Assembly (NCBI GenBank): GCA_951406725.2
Contig: OX597829.1
Location: 19,034,001-19,098,000 of the forward strand
DNA: 64,000 nucleotides
Direction of reading: 5' to 3'
From: Octopus vulgaris
Taxonomy: Eukaryota
Shown here: positions 564 to 63,123 of the stretch, piece after piece
Layout of the letters: each line of letters begins with the position of its first letter
Position numbering within the stretch: the stretch's first letter is position 1
Notes under the pieces: model-generated
Database searches by the model: none
Told to the model about the DNA's origin: nothing
Seen by the model: only the letters and a program-made list of their open reading frames with translations
Made by a program: the position numbers and the translations under genes

Positions 564-883
564 CCCATAAACCAGCCTACTTCACTATAATATGTATATA
601 AATATATAAATATAAATACACACACGCATGCACGCACACACGCATACACACACACACACACGTACTTGTGTGTGTGTCTGTGTTTGTTCTTCCCACCACC
701 ATCACTTGACAACAGATGTTGGTGTGTTTATGCCCCCTAACTTAGTAGTTTTGCAAAAGAGACCAATTGAATAAGTACTAGGCTCACAAAGAACAAGTCC
801 TGGAGTCGATTTCTTCAACTATAAACCTTTAAGGCAGTGCTCCAGCATGGCCACAGTGAAATGACTGAAACAAGTGAAAAAGC

Positions 884-1040
884 AGGAGTGGCTGTGTGGT
901 AAGTAGTTTGCTTATCAACCACATGGTTCCAGGTTCAGTCCCACTGCGTGGCATCTTGGGCAAGTGTCTTCTGCTATAGCCCCGGGCTGACCAATGCCTT
1001 GTGAGTGGATTTGGTAGACGGAAACTGAAAGAAGCCTGTC

Positions 1041-1083
<43 letters not shown>

Positions 1084-1295
1084 CGTGTGTGTGTGTTTGT
1101 CCCCCTAGCATTGCTTGGCAACCGATGCTGGTGTGTTTACGTCCCCGTCACTTAGCGGTTCGGCAAAAGAGACCGAAAGAATAAGTACTGGGCTTACAAA
1201 GAATAAGTCCCGGGGTCGAATTGCTCGACTAAAGGCAGTGCTCCAGCATGGCTGCAGTCAAATGACTGAAACAAGTAAAAGAGAGTAAAAGAGTA
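884..1295 (+). mobile_element. tRNA-derived SINE family A (CORE-like), full length, with internal microsatellite
   Basis: A box TGGCTGTGTGG, B box GGTTCAGTCCC, CTTGGGCAAGT segment, internal (TA)n(TG)n, tail ATGACTGAAACAAGTAAAAGAG; more than 20 copies in the window. Confidence 0.9.
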
Positions 1296-1305
1296 AAATA
1301 TATAC

Positions 1306-1485
1306 AATAACGATTTTTTTACCAACCTAATGTTGGCAGTCCCATTTTGGCCCCAGGAGACATCATCTCCAGCTGGCTATACGACGTTGTATAGCCAGCT
1401 GGAGATGATGTCTCCTGGAGCTAAACAACAGTAGCATTTGCCCTAAAATGGGGCTGCCACATTAGGGTGGCAAAAAATTGTTATT
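1306..1485. repeat. Fold-back palindromic element, related to 11233-11567
   Basis: CCAGGAGACATCATCTCCAGCTGGCTATAC and its reverse complement flank a centre near 1385; outer arms imperfect. Confidence 0.8.
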
Positions 1486-1556
1486 TCAAAGTGGTGCTAC
1501 TCTCTTTGAGAGATTTAGGAACAACAGTGTTTCTATTTTAAAGAATATATATATAG

Positions 1557-1965
1557 GTGTAGGAGTGGCTGTGTGGTAAGTAGCTTGCTTACGAACCACG
1601 GGTTCGGTCCCACTGTGTGGCACCTTGGGCAAGTGTCTTATACTATAGCCTCGGGCCGACCAAAGCCTTGTGAGTGGATTTGGTAGACGGAAACTGAAAG
1701 AAGCCTGTCGTATATATGTATATATATATATATGTGTATGTGCATGTATATGTTTATGTGTCTGTGATTGTCCCCCCAACGTTGCTTGACAACTGATGCT
1801 GGTGTGTTTACGTCCCCATAACTTAGCGGTTCGGCAAAAGAGACCGATAGAATAAGTACTAGGCTTACAAAGAATAAGTCCTGGGGTCGATTTGCTCGAC
1901 TAAAGGCGGTGCTCCAGCATGGCCGCAGTCAAATGACTAAAATAACGAAAAGAAAAGAAAGAAAA
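1557..1965 (+). mobile_element. SINE family A, full length
   Basis: Same head, body and tail as 884-1295. Confidence 0.9.
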
Positions 1966-20583: not shown

Positions 20584-20618
<35 letters not shown>

Positions 20619-20634
20619 TTATTTTATAGAAGGA

Positions 20635-20683
20635 GCTTCTACAGGACTAGAGCTGTTTCATTCAGATGAAATCTTCAGGAAGC
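20635..20683 (-). ncRNA. Type I hammerhead ribozyme motif
   Basis: GCTTC-CTGAAGA-TTTCATCTGAAT-GAA-ACAG CTCTAGTC CTGT-A-GAAGC. Confidence 0.72.
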
Positions 20684-20730
20684 TTCCTGAAGATTTCATC
20701 TGAATGAAACAGCTCTAGTCCTGTAGAAAC
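20682..20730 (+). ncRNA. Type I hammerhead ribozyme motif (mirror copy)
   Basis: Same motif on the plus strand with one stem I mismatch (GAAAC). Confidence 0.68.
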
Positions 20731-20813
20731 TCCTTCTATAAAATAAATTACTTTACTCTGCTATGTATTGAGTACCTTATTTACTGTGGTTAACCCTGAC
20801 TCAACCCGGGACC

Positions 20814-20860
<47 letters not shown>

Positions 20861-26901: not shown

Positions 26902-27310
26902 AGGCGCAGGAGTGGGTGTGTGGTAAGTAGCTTGCTAACCAGCCACATGGTTCTGGGTTCAGTCCCACTGCGTGGCATCTTGGGCAAGTGCCTTCTGCTA
27001 TAGCCCCAGGCCAACCAATGCCTTGTGAGTGGATTTGGTAGATGGAAACTGAAAAGAAGCCTGTCGTATATATGTATATATATATGTATGTGTATTTGTG
27101 TGTCTGTGTTTGTCTCCCTAGCATTGCTTGACAACCGATGCTGGTGTGTTTACGTCCCCGTCACTTAGCGGTTCGGCAAAAGAGACCAATAGAATAAGTA
27201 CTGGGCTTACAAAGAATAAGTCCCAGGGTCGATTTGCTCGACTAAAGGCGGTGCTCCAGCATAGCCACAGTCAAATGACTGAAACAAGTGAAAGAGTAAA
27301 AGAGAGAGTA
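26902..27310 (+). mobile_element. SINE family A, full length
   Basis: Near-identical to 884-1295. Confidence 0.9.
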
Positions 27311-27636
27311 AAAGAGAATCATTGTACACTGTTAAACAACAAGGTAATATTACAATGAGTGGTGGTTCTTTGGTGACATTTTGGGACAGCTACTAATCAT
27401 GTTAAATATCTTTCACTGAAAAGTGACATACTGCAGTACTTGCTGTTGTATCTTGGGAGCTTAGCATTTTAACATACATACATACATACATGTATGCATG
27501 TATATACACATGCATACACACATGTACATACATATACATATGTGTGCGTGTGTGCGTGTGTGCATGTGTGTGTGTATGTGTGTGTGTGAGTATATCTGCA
27601 TGTGCATGTATATATATCAGTATGCATGTGTATGTG

Positions 27637-27682
<46 letters not shown>

Positions 27683-28611
27683 CATACATATATACACATA
27701 TATATACATATATAAATGTATATATATTTATATACATATATACACACATAAACATATATAAATGTTTATATATGCATATATATATATATGTATATATGTA
27801 TATATATTGTATATATATGTATATAGGTATATGTATGCCTATGTATATGTATATAGGCATATGTGTGTGTGTATATATATATATATATAGGTATGTGTAT
27901 GTGTGTGAATATATATATGTGTGTGTATATATATATATATATATATGAATGTGTGTGTGTAGTGATCTTCATCTAAGTAAGATGTTTACCAACTGAGAAT
28001 GCTCAATGATTCAACAGGTAGATGGTGTTATGACTTACCATTTGTTTCAGTCGTAGAACACTCCATCAGCTGCTGTTGAGCAAATAATGTGAACACATAT
28101 ACACTCATTTTCCCATGCTATATAAAGTATTTGCTGACATTATGAATGGCTGGCTATATAAACTGACAAAGAATGGACAAAGATACAAGGTGATCATTTT
28201 ATATGCCTTTGAGATATAACAACTGAAAAAGAAAAATAACTCTCTTACCGACTCAGTCAGGATTGAACTAGCAGCATTGTTGTCTCAGCCACCATCTCTT
28301 TCTTTACCATACAGAATGACAAAGGTAACAGGTATGTACTCCAGGCAAAAAGGGAGGGATTCTTTGTTAAGAAGGTGAAAGTGCAAGGCTTGGTGATTAG
28401 GGTGTTGGGCTCATTATCAGAAGATTGTGGCTTCGATTCCTAGACCAGGAAAGGTGTTTGTGTTCTTGAGAAAAACGTTTCATTTTATGGTGCTCCAGCT
28501 CACTCAGTTGGTAAAAAGGGAGTAAACCTGCAATGCACTGGCATCCCATCCAGGGAGGAATATATGTCTATGTATGTGTATGTGTCTGTGTATGTGTGCA
28601 TATATTTATAT

Positions 28612-28646
<35 letters not shown>

Positions 28647-28936
28647 CACACACACACATATATCTATACATGTATATATACGCACATATATATATACATG
28701 TATATATGTGTGTGTGTGTATCTATATATATCTATATATATACATGTATGTATATATATATGTGAAAGTGCATGGCTCAGTGTCAGGCACACAGTCATGA
28801 GGTAATGAGTTCGATTCCCAGATCAGGTCGTATGCTGTGTTCTTAAGCAAGTCACTTTATTTCACTTTGCTCCAGTTCACTCATCTGTAGAAATGAGTTG
28901 CAACATCACTGATACCAATACGTGTATATATATATG

Positions 28937-29101
28937 TAGGAGTGGCTGTGTGGTAAGTGGCTTGCTTGCCAACCACATGGTTCTGAGTTCAGTCCCACTG
29001 CATGGCACCTTGGGCAAGTGTCTTCTACTATAGCCTCAAGCCGACCAAAGCCTTCTGAGTGGATTTGGTAGACAGAAACTGAAAGAAGCCCATCGTATAT
29101 A

Positions 29102-29167
<66 letters not shown>

Positions 29168-29385
29168 TGAGTGTGTGTGTATGTTTGTGTGTCTGTGCTT
29201 GTCACCAACATTGCTTGACAACCGATGCTGGTGTGTTTCTGTTGCCATAACTTAGCAGTTCGGCAAAAGCAACCGATAGAATAAGTACTAGGCTTACAAA
29301 GAATAAGTTCTGTGGTCAATTTGTTCAATTAAAGGCAGTGCTGCAGCATGGCCACAGTCAAATGACTGAAACAAATAAAAGAAAA
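28937..29385 (+). mobile_element. SINE family A, full length
   Basis: Head, (TG)n and tail present. Confidence 0.9.
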
Positions 29386-30305: not shown

Positions 30306-33029
30306 ATCATCATCATCATCATCACCATCGTTTAACGTCCATTTTCCGCGCTAGCACGGGTTGGACGGTTCGACTGGGGTCTGGGAAGCCAGGGCTGTAC
30401 CAGGCTCCAGTCTGATCTGGCAGTGTTTCTACAGCTGGATGCCCTTCCTAACACCAACCACTCCGCGAGTGTAGTGGGTGCTTTTTACGTGCCACCTGCA
30501 CAGGTGCCAGGGGGGTCCGGCGCCATGATCGGTTGGTGCTTTTAACATGCCACCGGCACGGAAGCCAGCCAAGGCGATGCTGGCATCGGCCACGTTCGGA
30601 TGGTGCTTTTTATGTGCCACCACCACAGAAGCCAGTCGAGGCGGGGCTGGCAACGGCCACATTCAGATGGTGCTTTTTGTGTGCCACAGGCACAGAAGCC
30701 AGTCGAGGCGGTACTGGCATCGGCCACATTCGGTTTGTGCTTTTTATGTGCCACTGGCACAGAAGCCAGTCGAGGCAGTGCTGGCAACGGCCACGTATCA
30801 CAACTACTATTTCCATTGATATTTGTTTCGATGTTCATGTACATGCACTTGACTCAACAGGTCTCCTCAAGCACAGCGAGATGTTCCGGGATCCAAGGTA
30901 CTTTGAATGGGCAGGGACTATGCGGAACTGGTGCCGGAAGCATCCCGGGTCTTTGTAGTCACAGCACATCTCCAGAGATCTCGGTCCTTCGCCATTGCCT
31001 CAGTGAGGGCCAACGCTCTGAGGTCATGCTTGACTACCTCATCCCATGTCTTCCTGGGTCTACCTCTCCCCCTGATTCCTTCAACTGTTTGGGAGCGGCA
31101 CTTCTTCACACATCTCTCCTCATCCATCCGCAGTACATGACCATACCATTGCAAGCGTCGCTCTTGCACACTGCATCTGATGCTTCTTATGTCTAGCATT
31201 TCTCTCAGGGTGCTTACACTCTGTCGTGCATTCACACTGACATTACACATCCAGCAGATCATGCTAACTTCATTTCTTTCAAGTCTATGCATGTCTTCTG
31301 CAGTCACGGCCCATCTTTCACTGCCATGAAGCATGGCAGTTCGCACACATGCATCATACAATCTACCTTTCACTCTGAGTGAGAGACCTTTTGTTGCCAG
31401 TAGGAGTAGGAGCTTTCTAAACTTTGCCCAGGCTATTCGTATTCTAGTGGTGACACTCTATGAGCATCCACCTCCACTACTAACTTGGTCACCCAGGTGG
31501 CGGAAACTATCAACTACTTCTAGTTTCTCCCCCTGGAGTGTGATGGAATCTGTTTTCTGAGTATTTGTGGTGTCTATTGTCCCTGTGCATCTGCCGCACA
31601 TGAAAGCTATCTTATCAGTTAATTTCCCTTTGATGTTGCTGCACCTCTTATGCGTCCATAGCTTACACTGGGTGCATCTTATGGAGTTTCTATCTACACC
31701 TTTCCTACAGATCGAGCAGGGCCACCTGCTCGATGGGGTGTGTGCTGAGTTCGCCTTTCTGCTTACTATAACTTTGGTCTTCGCTACATTTACTCTAAAG
31801 CCCTTTGATTCTAACCCTTGTTTCCACACCCGAAATTTCTTTTCTAGTTCCGGTAGTGATTCTGCTATGAGAGCCAGGTCATCAGCATAGAGGAGCTCCC
31901 AGGGGCAACCTGTTTTAAATTCCTCTGTTATATGCCTGGAGGACTGTGATGAATAAAAGGGGACTGAGGGCTGAGCCTTGGTGTACACCTACTTCTACCC
32001 GGAATTCTTCACTATATTTGTTGCCAATCCTAACCTTACTGACAGCCTCTCTGTATAGAGCCTGTACAGCCCTTATTAGCCATTTGTCAATCTCCAGTTT
32101 CCACATCGACCACCAGATAAGGGATCGGGGAACCCTGTCAAAGGCTTTCTCCAAGTCCACAAAAGCTATGTAGAGGGGTTTATCTTTAGCTAGGTACTTC
32201 CCCTGCAGTTGTCGGACCAGGAATATAGCATCAGTGGTGCTTCTACCCGGCACAAAACCGAACTGCATCTCATCTAAGCAAATTCTCTCCCTAATGAGAT
32301 GGGTTATGACCCTCTCTGTGACCTTCATCACCTGATCCAACAGTTTAATACCCCTATAGTTATTTCTATCTAGAGCATCACCCTTACCCTTGTAGCAATT
32401 GACTATGGTACTGCTACGCCAGTCATTGGGTATGACTCTATTATGAACTACCTGGTTTACAATGCGGGTGACTAGGCCATAGCCCACATAACCAGCTGTT
32501 TTAAGCATCTCAGCAGTGATACCTGATGGGCCGGGGGCTTTACCTGGTTTCATACCCTTAATTGCCTTAACTACAAGGGAGCTGTCTATTTGGATAGCTG
32601 GTCTCTCCACTGGGTCAACATTTGGCAGGCTCTCCTCCTCCCATTCTTTCTCCACATTCAGCAGTCTTTCATAATGGCTTCTCCAAGCCTCTTTCTTTTC
32701 ACCAACATTAAAAGCAAGTGCCCCATCATTTCTCTCCTGTAACATCACTATTTTCTCTCACACACTGTCTAGCAATCCGAAATACCTCAGTTCTTTGGTC
32801 CTCACATCGCTGGACATTGGCAAACTTCTTCTTTTCTGCTATATCTTTGGCTATGTATACCTGCCGCCCAGCCTCCCTTTTGGCTACTTGGTACGGTTCC
32901 CTGCTACCCCCATCCCTCCAGGCCTGTTTCTTTGCACTAATGGCTTTGTCTACTGCACTATTCCACCACCATGTAACTCTAGGTCTGGAAGGGACTTTTC
33001 ACCATCCACAGACTTGGTCTGTGGCTCTC
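30306..33029 (-). mobile_element. 5'-truncated RTE-clade LINE with frameshifted reverse transcriptase, 3'UTR array and (GAT)n tail
   Basis: KAPGPSG, NYRGIKLL, QFGF, FVDLEKAFD, GVHQGSALSP, LYADD (31878-31889), [21 protein letters not shown]; (TA)n on both sides. Confidence 0.95.
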
Positions 33030-35959: not shown

Positions 35960-35992
<33 letters not shown>

Positions 35993-36008
35993 TTATTATA
36001 TAGAAGGA

Positions 36009-36057
36009 GCTTCTACAGGACTAGAACTGTTTCATTCAAGAGAAATCTTCAGGAAGC
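36009..36057 (-). ncRNA. Type I hammerhead ribozyme motif (mirror copy)
   Basis: Exact reverse complement of 36059-36107. Confidence 0.72.
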
Positions 36058-36058
36058 T

Positions 36059-36107
36059 GCTTCCTGAAGATTTCTCTTGAATGAAACAGTTCTAGTCCTG
36101 TAGAAGC
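36059..36107 (+). ncRNA. Type I hammerhead ribozyme motif
   Basis: GCTTC-CTGAAGA-TTTCTCTTGAAT-GAA-ACAG TTCTAGTC CTGT-A-GAAGC. Confidence 0.72.
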
Positions 36108-36191
36108 TCCTTCTATATAATAAATTAATTTTACTCTGCTATGTATTGAGTACCTTATTTACTGTGGTTAACCCCGAATCAACCCGGGACC

Positions 36192-36230
<39 letters not shown>

Positions 36231-41017: not shown

Positions 41018-41231
41018 CTATTTATTATTTTACTTGTTTCAGTTATTTGGCTGCAGCCATGCTGGAGCACCACCTTTAGTCGAGCACATCAACCCCAGGA
41101 GTTATTCTTTGTAAGCCTAGTACTTATTCTATCGGTCTCTTTTGCCGAACAGCTAAGTTACAGGATATAAACACAGTAGCATCGGTTGTCAAGCAATGTT
41201 GGCGGGACAAACACAGACCAACAAACTTATG

Positions 41232-41262
<31 letters not shown>

Positions 41263-41788
41263 GATGGGCTTCTTTCAGTCTCCATCAACCAAATCCACTC
41301 ACAAGGCTTTGGTCAGCTCGCGGCTATAGTAGAAGACACTTGCCCAAGGTGCCATGCAGCAGGACTGAACCTGGAACCATGTGGTTGGTAAGCATGCTAC
41401 TTACCACACAGCCACTCCTGCGCCTATATATATATACATATATACAATAGGCTTCTTTCAGTGTCCATCTACCAAATCCACTAAGAAGGCTTTGGTCAGC
41501 CTGAGGCTAGAGTAGAAGACACTTGCCCAAGGTTCCACGCAGTGGGACTGAACCCAGAATCATGTAGTTGGGAAGCAACCTTCTTACCACACAACTGCAC
41601 CTGAAAAATGAAGGAAAATATAATTGACAGAAATACAACACCTGGATAGGAATTAGTGGGTAGACAACACCCTCAGGTGCAGTCATTGCAGGTGGAAAAA
41701 TCATTCACATGAAGGTCATCTCAATTGTTACAGTAGATCTTGTTCTGCTAACCAGACAGAAGCATGGTCTCACAAGTCTAATGGGTGT

Positions 41789-41838
<50 letters not shown>

Positions 41839-42087
41839 ACTATGTTAGGTCTTCGTGTTATATGTGTCTGCATCTTATTGATGACAGTGTTGTGACTTAT
41901 ATTTGGAGGATCCCATCACTGTCACCTCTGGACTGAGATGACACCTTGGTAACACATTATCTTTTTGTTTGCCCATGTATTTTGTATCATCTGTAATAGG
42001 TAGATAGACAGACAGACAGACAGAGAGATAGAGAGATAGATAGACAAATAGATAGACAGACAGGCAGATCGACAGAGAAATAAGGAT

Positions 42088-42129
<42 letters not shown>

Positions 42130-42657
42130 TATATTCAGCAGAACAAAATAGCATTAAAATTATTTTTGTCAAAGTGGAATTAATGATAATCATTTAAAAC
42201 ACGTAAATGCTGTTCTTGTTGCTTGTTTTATTTTTGTGACAAGATTTTTATATTATTAAGTTGTAAAAATAGAAATAGATTCAAAAGCAATAAATGTTTA
42301 ATGAAAGCTTTTATAATACCTTATAGTACATCATAAACTAAAAACAAATTTAAATACTACAGTAAATAGGTCTTTTGAATGGGTTATGCAAACCCTGAAG
42401 AAACCACTCACCAAACAAGTACAACTTCAAAATGTACAAAGTAAAAGTAATTTATAAATAGAACAGGCCAGACACTTTAGAATTTTTCAAGCAGATGGCT
42501 TAGGAAATTACCCACTCCAAAATAAAACTACCATTATCTCATGGTTCACCTGGGGTGGCAGGTGACTCTGAAAAAGACATGCTCATCCAAAGCTTTTCCC
42601 TCGTTCATTGTTGTACTCATTGCATTAGGTTTGACAGTATAGCTTAAGTGGGTTACA

Positions 42658-43255
42658 TTAATCATTTAGCATTTAAACTGACTGTATCTAATCAAAATAT
42701 TCTACTTCTTTTATGTTCAAACTGGCCAGATCTGGCCTCTCACACCTACCCTTCAAAGTCATTCTAAAAATAAACAATCACATCATTGAAATCTCAAAGC
42801 TATGAGATAAGCCACAACTAATTAAAAAAAAAAAAGAATGTGAATGCTAATTAAGGGCCAAGCAGGCCCTATTTTACCTGTTGTACGTTCATACCAACCA
42901 GATCCGGCCTCTCACACCTTTTCTTACAATGTCATTCTAAATCTAAACAATCACATCATCGAAGTCTCAGAGCTATGAGATAATGCATGGTTAATTCAAA
43001 ATAATGTGAATAAATAATCAATACAGATGACAGAGTAATCCAAATGATAATAGGCTAAGCCTTTAGCATTTACACTAGTTGCATCCAGCCAAAATAATCT
43101 AGATGCATTTCTTCAAATTGGCCAGATCCAGCCTTTCACACTTACCCAACAATATTACTCTTAAAATAAACAATCACATCACTGAAGTCTCAAAGCTACA
43201 ATGTGAATAAATAAGTATTACATTTGGCAGAGTAATCTGAATTCTAAAGGGTCAA
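42658..43255. mobile_element. Three head-to-tail copies of an approximately 200-bp piggyBac-like MITE
   Basis: Repeated GGCCAGATCCGGCCTCTCACAC...AAACAATCACATCA; degenerate TTAA-CCCTTTAGCATT / AATGCTAAAGGG-TTAA ends. Confidence 0.7.
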
Positions 43256-43525
43256 GCAATTAAGATATATCTTTGTGTCATATGTGAACATTGAAATATT
43301 TCTCCGTATTAGGTAACTCTTTTACTCTTTTACATTTTTCAGTCATTTGACTGTGTCCATGCTGGTGCACTGCCTTTAGTCAAGCAAATTGACTCCAGGA
43401 CTTATTCTTTGTAAGCCTAGTACTTATTCTATCGGTCATTTTTGCCGAACCGCTAAGTTACGGGAATATAAAAACACTAGCATTGGTTGTCAAGCGATGT
43501 TGTAGGGACAAACACAGACACACAA

Positions 43526-43573
<48 letters not shown>

Positions 43574-50735: not shown

Positions 50736-51088
50736 ACATTAATGGATGTACCATAGAGGGATGTTTTTCTTTGGATTCCTTTGCTTTTCTATAATGAGTT
50801 ATTTCATTTCAAAATATGCTTTTCTAAACTCCATGAATGATATTTTTACTCCTATAAATACATATATATATATATATCTTTTACTTGTTTCAGTCATTTG
50901 ACTGTGGCCATGCTGGAGCATCGCCTTTAGTCAAGCAAATCGACCAGAGGACTTATTCTTTGTAAGCCTACTACTTATTCTATCAGTCTCTATTGCCGAA
51001 CTGCTAAGTTACGTGGACATAAACACACTAGCATCGGTTGTCAAGCGATGTTGGGGGGACAAACACAGACACACAAACATATATATAT

Positions 51089-51163
<75 letters not shown>

Positions 51164-51512
51164 TATATATATATATGACGGGCTTCTTTCAGTTTCCGTC
51201 AACCAAATCCACTCACAAGGCTTTGGTTGGCCTGAGGCTATAGTGGAAGACACTTGCCCAAGGTGCCACGCAGTGGGAATGAACCCAGAACCATGTGGTT
51301 GGTAAGCAAGCTACTTACCACACAGCCACTCCATATATGCATATATGGGTACAGGACGTCACAGGCCATAAACAACATGAAATATAAAAACATATGAGTT
51401 GAATACACAAACAACGAGAGAGAGAAATGGAAAACAGAACAAGTAACATAAAGAACGACCCTTCATCAGCTGTCAGCTGTGTATCTACTTTTCCTTTCGA
51501 GCATTGAATATA

Positions 51513-57643: not shown

Positions 57644-58516
57644 CATACATATATTTTATTGTGTCTGGTGAGAGTCATTCTCTTTTAGTGCCTTATTATT
57701 TAACACACTCACTGGTAAAATTTCCACTTATTTCTTATTTTTATTTTCTAAAATTTTCGTTGCGTCTTGCAACCTTTTCAGTAGTTTTGTGGGTCAGTGG
57801 GTCAGTATGTATGTGTGCCTATACATGCATGCATGTACGTATGTATGTGTGTGTGTGTGTTTGCATGTGTATGTATGTATATATGTGTGTGTATGCATAT
57901 GTATGTGTGTGTGTGCATCTGTATGTACGTATCCTGCATACACGAGTAAAACGACCCCCCCTCGTCCAATGGACGGTGCTGAGTTGTCAAACATTTAAAC
58001 CAAATTTTCTCAAAACAACTTGTCCAACCGTTCCATAGGCCTCCCCTTTGAGAAACACTGATTTAACCTAAATTTGTGACACCAGCAAAAGAAGAAATAA
58101 GGATAGACTTTTTCTCGCATACGCATAGTATCGATCACAACAGCTGATGTACTTGCATGTACAAATGCACATTCCCATGGCTTTATTGATCGCATTCTCA
58201 CCTGGAATTGATTTTTGCAATTTAAAATAATTAAGTTAATGTCCGGTCATAGAGTGACCCATGGTTATGCATCCACAAAGAGCTTAGCGTCATGGATGTC
58301 TCATTAGCCAAAGACAAATATATTAATATATCGTTTGTAAAAAATATAAATCTGAAAAAAGATGCACACTCTAAGATGTAGAGCAGTATATATTTTTAAG
58401 AGATCATGGGCCAATAGGTTCTGGGGATCTGATACTACACCATAAAGCTAAATCCTTTATGGACAGGAAACCTAAGGTAGTCCTATAAACTAGACTCCCT
58501 CATTTTTTATTCATAT

Positions 58517-58690
58517 AGGCATAGGAGTGGCTGTGTGGTAAGTAGCTTGCTTACCAACCACATGGTTCCAGGTTCAGTCCCACTGCGTGACACCTTGGGC
58601 AAGTGTCTTCTACTATAGCCTCGGACTGACCAAAGCCTTGTGAGTGGATTTGGTAGACGGAAACTGAAAGAAGCCTGTTGTGTATATGTA

Positions 58691-58721
<31 letters not shown>

Positions 58722-58940
58722 GTCTGTGTGTGTCTGTGTTTGTCCCCCTAGCATCGCTTGACAACCGATGCTGGTGTGTTTATGTCCCCGTAACTTAGCG
58801 GTTCGGCAAAAGGGGCCAATAGAATAAGTACTAGGCTTACAAAGAATAAGTCCTGGGGTCGATTTGCTCGACTAAAGGCAGTGCTCCAGCATGGCCACAG
58901 TCAAATGACTGAAACAAGTAAAAAAATAAAAGAATAAAAA
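58517..58940 (+). mobile_element. SINE family A, full length
   Basis: Head, body and tail present. Confidence 0.9.
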
Positions 58941-61335: not shown

Positions 61336-63123
61336 CATCGTGTTATGTCTTTGTTATGAAGTGCAAAGAAGAGTTCCAGGTAGGGGGAGGTAATAAGCGA
61401 TTTTTTCCAGTATAAGGGAGATAATCGCTTTATATTTCTTTTCCCTTTTATTTAATGGGGTGAATTTCTCTGTATAAGAATGTTAGAGTGGTTAAGTTTG
61501 GATTTATATTTTTCAATGAAGAATGTTTCCTTGTTTAGTCTAATTTGTGTTGGTGTTCCGATAGCACATTGATAAAATGGAAAGATTAAAAATTGTGGTA
61601 GTAGTTGCTTTGCGCATTTTTCAATGTGGTCACTAAAGGGTATCATTCTGTATTCTGGGAATGCAATCTGTTGTCGATGCAGAGTGCATCTACGTCTGAG
61701 TAATATTCCCGTGGACCCCACGTAGTTTTGGTGGCAGCCCAAGCATCTTATGACATAAATTATGTTTTCAGAAGCACAAGTAAAATTAAATTTGATCTTG
61801 AATTTTTGTCCCTCTTTGAAGAGGAATTCTGATCCTTCTAGAAGGTTTGGGCATGTTGCACAGTTTGATCTACCACATTTTTTTACTTTTGCATCCGTAA
61901 TATCAGAAAGCAATTTTGCCTTTGTGAGAATCTTTTAAGTGATTTAGGTTGTTTGTAGCTTTTAATGATTTTATGTATGTTTAGAATTTCCTTTAATTTG
62001 GGGTCCTTATCAAGTATTGGTAAATTCTGGGTGATGATGGTGAAGGCTTCTTTGTTTCTGGGGTTGTATGTGGATATGTAAGGTAGTATTTTCGGGGAAG
62101 GTGTGTTGTTGTGTTGAACTTTTCTCAAAGTTTTTATGTCGATTTCTGTTGCACGTCTGATCCCATCCTCTATGAGTTGAGCTGGGTAGTGTCTGTCAAA
62201 TAGGGTGTTTTTGAGTTCTTGTAGTCTAAGGTTCCTGGTATTTTGTTCTGACACTATTGTGCATATCCTTCTTGCAAGGTTGAAGGGGATGTTTGTTTTA
62301 GTGTGTCTTGGGTGGCATGAATCAAAAAGTAGGTATTGTTTAGCGTCTGTGGCTTTGTAAAAAATGTCTGTTTCTATTTTAAGGTTAATTTTTTTAATTA
62401 GTATATCTAAGAATGGAAGCTCCTTTTGGTTGTATTCCATTGTGAACTGTATATTTGGGTTGATGCTGTTCAATAGGTTTTTGAATTTTAGGAGTTTATC
62501 TGTGTTTTCATTCCAGAGTATAAAACAATCGTCCAGGAATCGTTTCCAATTCTCTTTTATGTATTGAGAGAGGGGTTTCCAAAGGTCGATAAAGATTCCT
62601 GGTATACAATTATTTCCAGGTAGCCCAGTGTTAGGTTCGCAATGACTGGTGCTGCCCTTGTACCCATAGCAATTCCGGATTTTTGACAGTAAAATGTATT
62701 GTCAAACATGAAGTGGTTATTATGTAGGATGAATTCAACCGATTTAGTAATGAATTATTTACTGATCCTTTTTGATATTTCTTCCAGAAATTGGTCCAGC
62801 CAGAACTGTATTGCCTCTAGTCCATAATTATGAGGTATACTGGTATATAAATTAACTACATCAAATGAAACCATGATTGTTTCTTCCTTGACTTTTTTTG
62901 GAAGGTGGTTTAACATATCCAAGTCATCTCTGATTAAGTCTATTTATGGACATCCTCCTGAAACCCTTCCTTAAACATATCGATAGTCATATGGCTATCA
63001 ATGGGCTACCTGGAAATAATTGTATACCAGGAATCTTTATCGACCTTTGGAAACCCCCTCTCTTATTACCTCCCCCTACCTGGAACTCTTCTTTGCACTT
63101 CATAACGAAGACATAACACGATG

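What the first reader, a model, noticed from the sequence alone, without database searches (positions are those of the whole stretch)
20617..20815. Twin-hammerhead palindrome with copy-specific arms
Seen: same element as 35991-36195, but both arms here read TTTCATCTGAAT/AGCTCT while both arms at 36 kb read TTTCTCTTGAAT/AGTTCT. These substitutions fall in the hammerhead loops and leave stems and core intact. Both copies fold back within or beside stem I. Inference: each palindrome was made by fold-back synthesis from its own template (or homogenised later), and the ribozyme structure is under selection.
Basis: partly seen in the sequence, partly recalled or inferred. Interest (0 to 1): 0.72.

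Follow-up and report, generated by a model that had tools for sequence, protein, structure and literature searches.

The report
Capped Penelope RNA start copied twice
This 200-base hairpin is one of at least 744 back-to-back stubs of an abundant Penelope-like jumping gene; each was likely made when both ends of a cut TA repeat copied the capped front end of the element's RNA, which likely begins at the first base of its hammerhead ribozyme motif.

Summary
The palindrome is real: 66-nt arms, one mismatch, a 69-nt one-sided tail, inside (TA)n. It is a stub of a young Hydra-clade Penelope-like element (PLE): at least 5,101 tails, 744 short twin-hammerhead palindromes, and an intact 713-aa RT/GIY-YIG parent. 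The loop-II difference is a subfamily marker (351 arms), not copy-specific; only the loop-III C is nearly private (3 of 351). Arms agree within a copy (69 of 69, 81 of 82), but rare changes are mostly one-armed (35 versus 4), so there is no homogenisation. 5' ends pile up at the first base of stem I. A TATA-like box lies 29 nt upstream, and an untemplated G precedes that base in 40 of 77 solo copies. That base is likely the capped start site. The tail-less arm often holds sequence missing from the tailed arm, which favours two cDNAs joined at the self-complementary AGCT over fold-back. Few copies start at the ribozyme cut. Selection on the ribozyme is only suggestive. Inverted pLTRs with tails and hammerheads are published; this mechanism was not found in seven literature searches. 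This scan has noted two-site priming before, on other DNA.

The parts
20586..20616 (.). (TA)n target microsatellite, left part
   Evidence: sequence
20617..20684 (-). Tail-less inverted arm: element positions +68 to +1 (+1 = first A of stem I). Inferred cDNA primed at the internal site +68.
   Evidence: inverted arms end at +68 in 33 of 58, range +60 to +76
20634..20684 (-). Type I hammerhead motif on the minus strand; predicted cut between 20640 and 20639
   Evidence: motif scan; manual assignment; cleavage not tested
20681..20684 (.). AGCT shared by both arms, the palindrome centre; inferred 4-bp annealing of two cDNA 3' ends
   Evidence: the same junction in 16 of 50 listed palindromes, plus 4 one-letter variants (counted by hand)
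20681..20731 (+). Type I hammerhead motif: stem I 20681-20686/20726-20731, core CUGAAGA 20687-20693, short stem II with loop ATCT 20698-20701, GAAA 20706-20709, stem III with 8-nt loop 20713-20720; predicted cut after 20725; G>A at 20729 in stem I (possibly an assembly error)
20698..20701 (+). Loop II ATCT, a subfamily marker
   Evidence: 351 arms genome-wide
20713..20713 (+). Loop III C (mirrored at 20652), a nearly private variant present in both arms
   Evidence: 3 of 351 ATCT arms
20749..20817 (+). One-sided tail, +69 to +137: the stretch between the two inferred RT start sites
   Evidence: tailed arms end at +137/+138 in 92 of 100; the parent continues from here into the ORF
20818..20858 (.). 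(TA)n target microsatellite, right part
35991..36195 (+). Second, independent insertion of the TCTT/TT subfamily; one arm reaches +1, the other begins at +2

Best explanation
The palindrome is a short head-to-head insertion of the front end of a Hydra-clade Penelope-like retrotransposon, likely made when both ends of a cut (TA)n repeat primed reverse transcription on the same uncut, capped RNA and the two cDNAs ran off its 5' end and were joined. Shown: the parent unit (5.1 kb) has a TATA-like box at -29, the hammerhead at +1 to +51, AT-rich points at +68 and +138, an ATG at +183 and a 713-aa RT/GIY-YIG ORF. Also shown: short copies end at +68 on one side and +138 on the other, and their 5' ends pile up at +1 with an extra G. 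Inferred: +1 is the Pol II start and the G is the copied cap. The endonuclease opens both strands of (TA)n; one 3'-OH primes at +68 and the other at +138. Both cDNAs end in GAAGCT(C), anneal through the self-complementary AGCT (or a 1-4-nt microhomology, sometimes after a short snap-back), and are filled in. Long inverted copies would arise the same way from the 3' pLTR of longer transcripts. The arms match because they copy one RNA or RNAs of one source locus. The stub has no promoter, and its RNA is predicted to form a 64-bp hairpin, not a ribozyme, so it is likely an inert by-product.
For: Parent: 20 of 30 ORF loci have the hammerhead directly upstream of the ORF, 19 of them through the tail (counted by hand); intact ORF L226:772-2913; unit 5,104 nt.
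Wall at +1: of 100 position-ordered tailed copies, 23 end exactly at +1, none between 0 and -10, 5 between -11 and -41, and 30 run past -100; 16 of 58 inverted arms end at +1.
Promoter: the TATA-like hexamer starts at -29 in 66 of the 68 arms in which it was scored, across subfamilies.
Cap: among 77 distinct solo copies joined to (TA)n at +1, the base before +1 is G in 40, C in 15, T in 13, A in 9; only 2 have GG (first 100 of 113 matches, de-duplicated by hand). The native base is T or C in three subfamilies. A full-length ORF copy also starts TG then +1 (L222), and a short-read run shows a joint with one G before +1 (table 5c). Untemplated G is attributed to the cap in L1/SVA (PMC3287187, passages).
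Two cDNAs: the tail-less arm reaches further 5' in 25 of 57 short palindromes (tailed 21, equal 11), 6 versus 4 among differences of 8 nt or more, and 5 versus 4 of 14 long inverted copies. The commonest junction has no loop (16 of 50).
Precedent: a purified PLE cuts and extends both strands from two internal RNA sites that delimit the tail and uses uncut RNA (PMC11167929).
The same three boundaries (+1, +68, +141) appear in two independent DNA-like runs (table 7).
Against: No RNA 5' end was mapped: only contigs were available, and they also cover -125 to 0. Palindromes are unstable, so later one-sided deletions could mimic the arm asymmetry. Some junctions hold short fold-back insertions (L003, L094, L107, L163), so snap-back does occur. 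The hairpins carry an error hot spot (1-nt losses at +46/+49 in 20 of 170 hairpin arms versus 1 of 103 others). The 7-nt junction class (16 of 50) may therefore be the 8-nt class minus one base; without that class and the 3 arms ending in the same CAGG, 10 of 12 remaining joins have G at -1 (one search gave 26 of 28 with them). A 1-nt snap-back on the cDNA mirror of stem I, or terminal addition of C, could also give the G. D. virilis Penelope has a TATA-less internal promoter with its start well upstream of helix I (PMC2377424 passages; PMC4209133), so this layout is not general. That one RNA serves both cDNAs needs strand displacement, which is inferred only.
Confidence: 0.65

Rival explanations
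1. Fold-back (self-priming): a single cDNA runs to +1, folds on itself and is copied back until the AT-rich stretch near +68 anneals to the (TA)n target. The asymmetries come from later deletions. This is the first reader's model and is close to the self-priming model of Arkhipova et al. 2013.
For: It explains arm concordance and the 4 rare variants shared by both arms. The 7-nt junction fits a hairpin with a 3-nt loop (16 of 50). Short snap-back insertions occur. Some long copies are near-perfect palindromes (L072). Proposed in PMC3846280 (passages).
Against: The commonest junction would need a loop of 2 nt or less. The tail-less arm holds 0.6-2 kb or more that the tailed arm lacks in 5 of 14 long copies, with the arms abutting in the four mapped (L074). 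The antisense-template version does not explain a G at the sense 5' end.
Confidence: 0.22
2. The +1 wall is a splice or processing boundary, or a stop caused by snap-back of the cDNA on its own stem-I mirror, and not a transcription start.
For: AG at +1/+2 follows a T-rich stretch; in D. virilis the intron ends at helix I (PMC4209133); the stem-I mirror would also supply a G.
Against: No shared upstream exon sequence in 77 solo junctions, and single G far outnumbers GG (38 vs 2). The TATA-like box is fixed at -29. No joint at this place in four RNA-like contig sets, which is weak evidence.
Confidence: 0.08
3. The palindrome is itself a mobile unit (retrozyme- or MITE-like) that spreads whole and keeps two working ribozymes under selection, or its arms are homogenised by gene conversion.
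For: Identical junctions recur; L031 shares this copy's junction and has the rare loop-III C on one arm.
Against: The same junction occurs in all four subfamilies, so it forms repeatedly. The stub has no promoter. The RNA folds as one hairpin. Rare variants are one-armed in 35 of 39. Post-insertion changes hit stems as often as loops.
Confidence: 0.04
4. Assembly or library artefact (fold-back chimeras).
For: Hairpin-specific single-base errors exist in this assembly.
Against: The inverted junction at +1 is seen as loose ends in an independent DNA-like contig set (X16, 19 contigs). The one-sided tail, fixed ends and one-armed mutations are not expected of chimeras.
Confidence: 0.01

Closest known systems
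Hydra clade of C-terminal-EN Penelope-like elements, including Hydra-1_Obim (Craig et al. 2021, PMC8557442; section 11, passages and supplement passages seen)
   Same: Single RT + GIY-YIG ORF, RW(R/K), DKT, CxCX5C linker, CxxC and CxH, no CCHH, hammerhead in the pLTR, (TA)n target, inverted 5'-truncated copy with a one-sided tail.
   Different: A different family: protein and hammerhead differ from Hydra-1_Obim by eye, and four motifs of this family gave 0 hits in that supplement. The unit is 5.1 kb with a ~2.9-kb microsatellite-rich 3' region (Hydra elements are usually under 3 kb). The tail is ~70 nt, not 30-40.
Poseidon of Anolis (PAc) in vitro (Frangieh et al. 2024, PMC11167929; parts 1-2 of 4 read)
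   Same: Two internal RT start sites delimit the tail, AT-rich target, both strands cut and extended, uncut RNA used as template.
   Different: In the parts read it does not treat inverted junctions, the cap or the start site. Its ORF starts inside the hammerhead, here at +183.
Inverted pLTRs with palindromic junctions in Adineta Penelope (Arkhipova et al. 2013, PMC3846280; passages)
   Same: Head-to-head palindromes, one-sided tail, TATA/Inr-like motif in the pLTR.
   Different: Explained there by self-priming on an antisense template; the data here point to a capped sense template and two cDNAs.
PLE hammerheads (Cervera and de la Pena 2014, PMC4209133; parts 1-2 of 4)
   Same: Type I motif in the pLTR, most copies truncated, pairs of motifs on opposite strands already noted (100-700 bp apart).
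   Different: Here helix II is short, with U opposite U in place of G10.1-C11.1, and helix III has 4 pairs with an 8-nt loop. The paired motifs touch (4-10 nt).
LINE-1 twin priming and untemplated cap G (PMC3287187 passages; the twin-priming paper seen only as a reference entry, content recalled)
   Same: Two primers on one RNA giving an inversion; an extra G at full-length 5' ends.
   Different: In L1 (recalled) the second primer anneals at variable internal sites and the arms do not overlap; here both sites are fixed and the arms duplicate each other.
Non-LTR retrozymes (bioRxiv 10.64898/2026.07.22.740005; part 1 of 5)
   Same: Type I hammerhead, PLE-related, non-coding.
   Different: Retrozymes are tandem direct repeats; this is an inverted stub of a coding element.

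Membership tests
EN+ Penelope-like element | Single ORF with RT and GIY-YIG endonuclease linked to the repeat | tested here: met
   713-aa ORF 183 nt after +1; YRDD and YIG motifs by eye; nearest Atlas clusters at 0.96-0.99 carry HTH_animal, GIY-YIG or RVT_1 in part of their members. Pfam itself gave no RT or EN hit.
EN+ Penelope-like element | Partial tandems forming pLTRs, inverted 5'-truncated copy, one-sided tail | tested here: met
   tandem units 5.1-5.2 kb apart; 57 of 100 tailed copies are short palindromes
Hydra clade | RWK-like, DKT, CxCX5C, CxxC and CxH motifs; no CCHH | tested here: met
   RWR, DKT, CNCPDKTTC, CDLC, CMH read in the ORF against the definition
Hydra clade | Insertion into (TA)n and a hammerhead in the pLTR | tested here: met
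Hydra clade | Placement in an RT phylogeny with named references | not tested
   no reference set among the session's sequences
Type I hammerhead ribozyme | Core CUGANGA/GAAA/UH with three helices | tested here: met
   motif and helices assignable; Rfam gathering search found nothing; the monomer fold is not better than shuffles (z 0.05 to 0.9)
Type I hammerhead ribozyme | G10.1-C11.1 pair closing helix II | tested here: not met
   U opposite U, invariant in 227 bases scored; the G-C pair is called highly conserved in PMC4209133
Type I hammerhead ribozyme | Covariation in helices | tested here: inconclusive
   no compensatory change among 123 copies; the family is too young
Type I hammerhead ribozyme | Self-cleavage | not testable with these tools
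   0 of 100 tailed copies begin at the cut site; 23 loci on (TA)n near it, 3 not explained by the native TA
Non-LTR retrozyme | Tandem direct repeats, each with a hammerhead | tested here: not met
   head-to-head stub of a coding parent

The most novel reading that the evidence does not exclude
Penelope-like elements integrate by obligatory two-ended priming: a dimeric RT-endonuclease copies one capped, sense, uncut RNA from two fixed sites onto both ends of a double-strand break. In this family the hammerhead starts at the cap nucleotide, so its cut would remove a 45-nt capped leader and act as an off switch on the mRNA rather than as a step of replication. Every promoter-bearing pLTR then seeds 200-nt hairpins that feed A-to-I editing.
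Probability: 0.35. Interest if true: 0.7.

Novelty: new member of a known kind. Interest (0 to 1): 0.42.

Why it matters
How PLEs make their inverted ends and tails is stated as unresolved (PMC8557442), and the published reading is self-priming, perhaps on an antisense RNA (PMC3846280). This family gives countable footprints: fixed ends at +68 and +138, a wall at +1 with a cap-like G, and AGCT joins. They point to a capped sense template and two primers, and they can be tested with the existing in-vitro PLE assay and with CAGE. The locus itself is an ordinary by-product, one of hundreds.

Tried and rejected
Rfam (gathering threshold) found no family in the window. Pfam found no RT or EN in the Hydra ORF.

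The first 30 loci were ranked by identity to the 36-kb copy and so were biased to T at +1; they were not used for frequencies.

The Neptune-type ORF in L066 and the ORF in L079 were first taken as possible parents. Rejected: each ends in its own hammerhead-like 3' region, and L066 is only 21% identical to the true ORF.

A hot spot of 1-2-nt losses at +46/+49, beside the predicted cut (39 events in 221 arms), looked like RT crossing a cleaved RNA. Rejected as a likely assembly error: it is confined to hairpins (20 of 170 vs 1 of 103) and is not listed in two deep contig sets at a 1% threshold (table 4).

Anchor-walking of long arms was noisy in low-complexity DNA and was replaced by BLAST; 5 of 14 long copies stayed equal or unclear.

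Sequencing runs: no RNA holder listed on record. Only contigs were available, so no start or end could be mapped.

Target-site duplications cannot be read in (TA)n. Genome-wide arm discordance could not be counted; it rests on 83 palindromes. PMC3774820 was opened by a mistaken DOI and not used. The supplements of the bioRxiv preprint were not seen and may list related families.

Full report
1. Observation. The window holds a spacerless palindrome at 20617-20748 (66-nt arms, one mismatch at 20729) with a one-sided tail to 20815-20817, between two (TA)n runs. A 91% identical copy lies at 35991-36195. Each arm carries a type I hammerhead motif. I number the element from the first A of stem I (+1 = 20681 on the plus strand, 20684 on the minus strand): stem I +1 to +6 with +46 to +51, core +7 to +13, loop II +18 to +21, loop III +33 to +40, predicted cut after +45. 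Rfam does not detect the motif. One arm folds no better than shuffles, while the whole palindrome folds as a single hairpin at z = -20.

2. Family. The window lies in a 2.8-Gb genome of 227 contigs; earlier scan notes call it an octopus, which I did not test. Exact patterns give 4,460 hammerhead arms, 5,101 tails and 744 short twin palindromes with 0-13 nt between the cores. These are lower bounds; the first and third omit the CUGAUGA subfamily. Four subfamilies differ at N7, loop II, loop III and in the flanks. The loop-III C occurs in 3 arms only: both arms here and the tailed arm of L031.

3. Parent. Long copies lead to several ORFs. One recurs in two subfamilies. Of 30 loci fetched with it, 20 have the hammerhead directly upstream, 19 of them running through the tail into an ATG at +183 (counted by hand). 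L226:772-2913 is an intact 713-aa ORF, and units repeat every 5.1-5.2 kb. Its motifs (RWR, DKT, CxCX5C, CxxC, CxH, no CCHH) meet the definition of the Hydra clade (PMC8557442 section 11). It differs from Hydra-1_Obim, and four of its motifs are absent from that paper's supplement. No tree was built.

4. Ends. Among 100 position-ordered tailed copies on contig C1, 30 run past -100, 57 are short palindromes and 13 are short without a scored inverted arm. Tails end at +137/+138 in 92 of 100. Inverted arms end at +68 in 33 of 58 (range +60 to +76). Both points are AT-rich, like the target. 5' ends of tailed arms: 23 at +1, a decreasing series downstream, none from 0 to -10, 5 from -11 to -41. None begins at the predicted cut (+46). 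A genome-wide pattern found 23 loci joined to (TA)n near the cut, only 3 of which are not explained by the element's own TA (de-duplicated by hand). Two DNA-like contig sets from another study show loose ends at the same three places.

5. Why +1. A TATA-like hexamer starts at -29 in 66 of 68 arms scored, although the bases between differ among subfamilies. Among 77 distinct solo copies joined to (TA)n at +1, the preceding base is G in 40 (31 read TG), C in 15, T in 13 and A in 9; GG occurs twice (first 100 of 113 matches). The native base is T or C and the target has no G. A full-length ORF copy starts the same way (L222). In palindromes G precedes +1 in 26 of 28 joins not explained by AGCT or AG overlap. 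Sixteen of these belong to the 7-nt class or end in the same CAGG and may be explained otherwise; 10 of the other 12 have G. Untemplated G at full-length 5' ends is attributed to the cap in L1 and SVA (PMC3287187 passages). I infer a capped start at +1. No RNA end was mapped: the available runs are contigs and also cover the upstream region.

6. One cDNA or two. In 83 short palindromes the arms differ at 51 of 4,225 sites (1.2%), against 3.9% across copies. Subfamily sites agree in 69 of 69 (+11), 71 of 73 (+19) and 81 of 82 (+34), where random pairing would give 57-64%. So both arms come from one lineage, which both models allow. Rare variants are one-armed in 35 cases and two-armed in 4, which excludes steady homogenisation. 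Fold-back from the tailed cDNA requires the tail-less arm to be a subset of it. Yet the tail-less arm reaches further 5' in 25 of 57 short copies (tailed 21, equal 11), and in 6 versus 4 with differences of 8 nt or more. Among 14 long inverted copies it is longer in 5 (L067, L074, L075, L076, L082), shorter in 4, and equal or unclear in 5. The commonest junction, the one in this copy, has no loop (16 of 50, plus 4 one-letter variants) and is what two ends in GAAGCT give when they anneal through AGCT. Against this: later one-sided deletion can mimic asymmetry, short snap-back insertions exist, and hairpins in this assembly carry single-base errors.

7. Selection. Among 123 tailed copies, recurrent variants lie at 5 of 13 loop/N7 sites and 2 of 38 stem/core sites (P = 0.008). 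One of those two lies in the error hot spot and the other next to the junction. Stems and core are not more conserved than the tail (7 of 87; P = 0.72), there is no compensatory change, and rare changes hit stems and loops alike. Any selection acts on source elements, not on these stubs. Helix II lacks the usual G10.1-C11.1 pair, so activity is unproven.

8. Mechanism. Shown: parent, promoter-like spacing, three fixed boundaries, extra G, arm concordance, arm asymmetry. From the literature: a purified PLE cuts and extends both strands from two internal sites that delimit the tail, on uncut RNA (PMC11167929, parts 1-2 of 4). Inferred: two-ended priming at +68 and +138, run-off at the cap, joining by AGCT, fill-in (0.65). 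Fold-back of one cDNA remains the main rival (0.22).

9. Prior knowledge. Inverted truncated copies with a one-sided tail (PMC8557442), palindromic junctions explained by self-priming (PMC3846280 passages) and hammerhead pairs on opposite strands (PMC4209133) are published. Seven searches of an open-access library listed no paper whose title or abstract start explains PLE palindromes by twin priming or reports a cap G at helix I; subscription papers are not covered. My reading was written down before I opened the scan's notes. Those notes report two-site priming for other families in this and other genomes, some with a probable cap; they are unchecked and not independent support.

10. Verdict. 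A real, ordinary by-product of a new Hydra-clade family. Its interest lies in the mechanism that the copies record. New member of a known kind; interest 0.42.

Noticed in passing
L194:935-1001 and hammerhead (element -68 to +30): Clustered A>G changes at 17 and 16 places in two RNA-like contig sets (different studies) and at none in two DNA-like sets; some edited contigs alter the hammerhead core. Looks like ADAR hyper-editing of the inverted arms; needs matched DNA.
   Followed up: partly
L070, L076, L224 (two copies), L225: All five TA-subfamily ORFs examined share a frameshift between RT and endonuclease, whereas the TT-subfamily L226 is intact: recoding, or a defective lineage moved in trans.
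   Followed up: no
L066:4252-6609 (-), L079:5269-7191 (+): Other PLE families (one Neptune-type), each with its own hammerhead-like 3' region, are joined upstream of this family's microsatellite-rich 3' region: trains of PLEs moved together.
   Followed up: partly
L225, between ORF end and the next pLTR: About 2.9 kb of the 5.1-kb unit is (TA)n/(CA)n-rich sequence copied with the element, so it spreads microsatellites and its own target.
   Followed up: no
L001-L030: A recurring variant 5' end with T in place of A at +1, often preceded by G (14 of the 30 T-biased loci); possibly misreading of a modified cap-adjacent A.
   Followed up: partly
L072:396-7127: A 6.7-kb near-perfect palindrome (97.9%) of this family.
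   Followed up: no
L022: Three-armed insertion with tails on both outer arms and an extension into the sequence before the ORF.
   Followed up: no
G000:C2:62516262-62516302, C30:13753179-13753218: Two small palindromes whose arms both begin at or next to the predicted cut with a TA spacer; possible rare copies of cleaved RNA.
   Followed up: no
window 61455-62701 (-): Broken ORF of another PLE (RT plus GIY-YIG motifs by eye).
   Followed up: no
window 30921-32757 (-): Broken LINE-type RT ORF, RTE-like by eye.
   Followed up: no
window 882-1953, 27066-29382, 41207-43573, 50877-51332, 58508-58933: Several dispersed ~240-nt repeats in both orientations, SINE-like.
   Followed up: no
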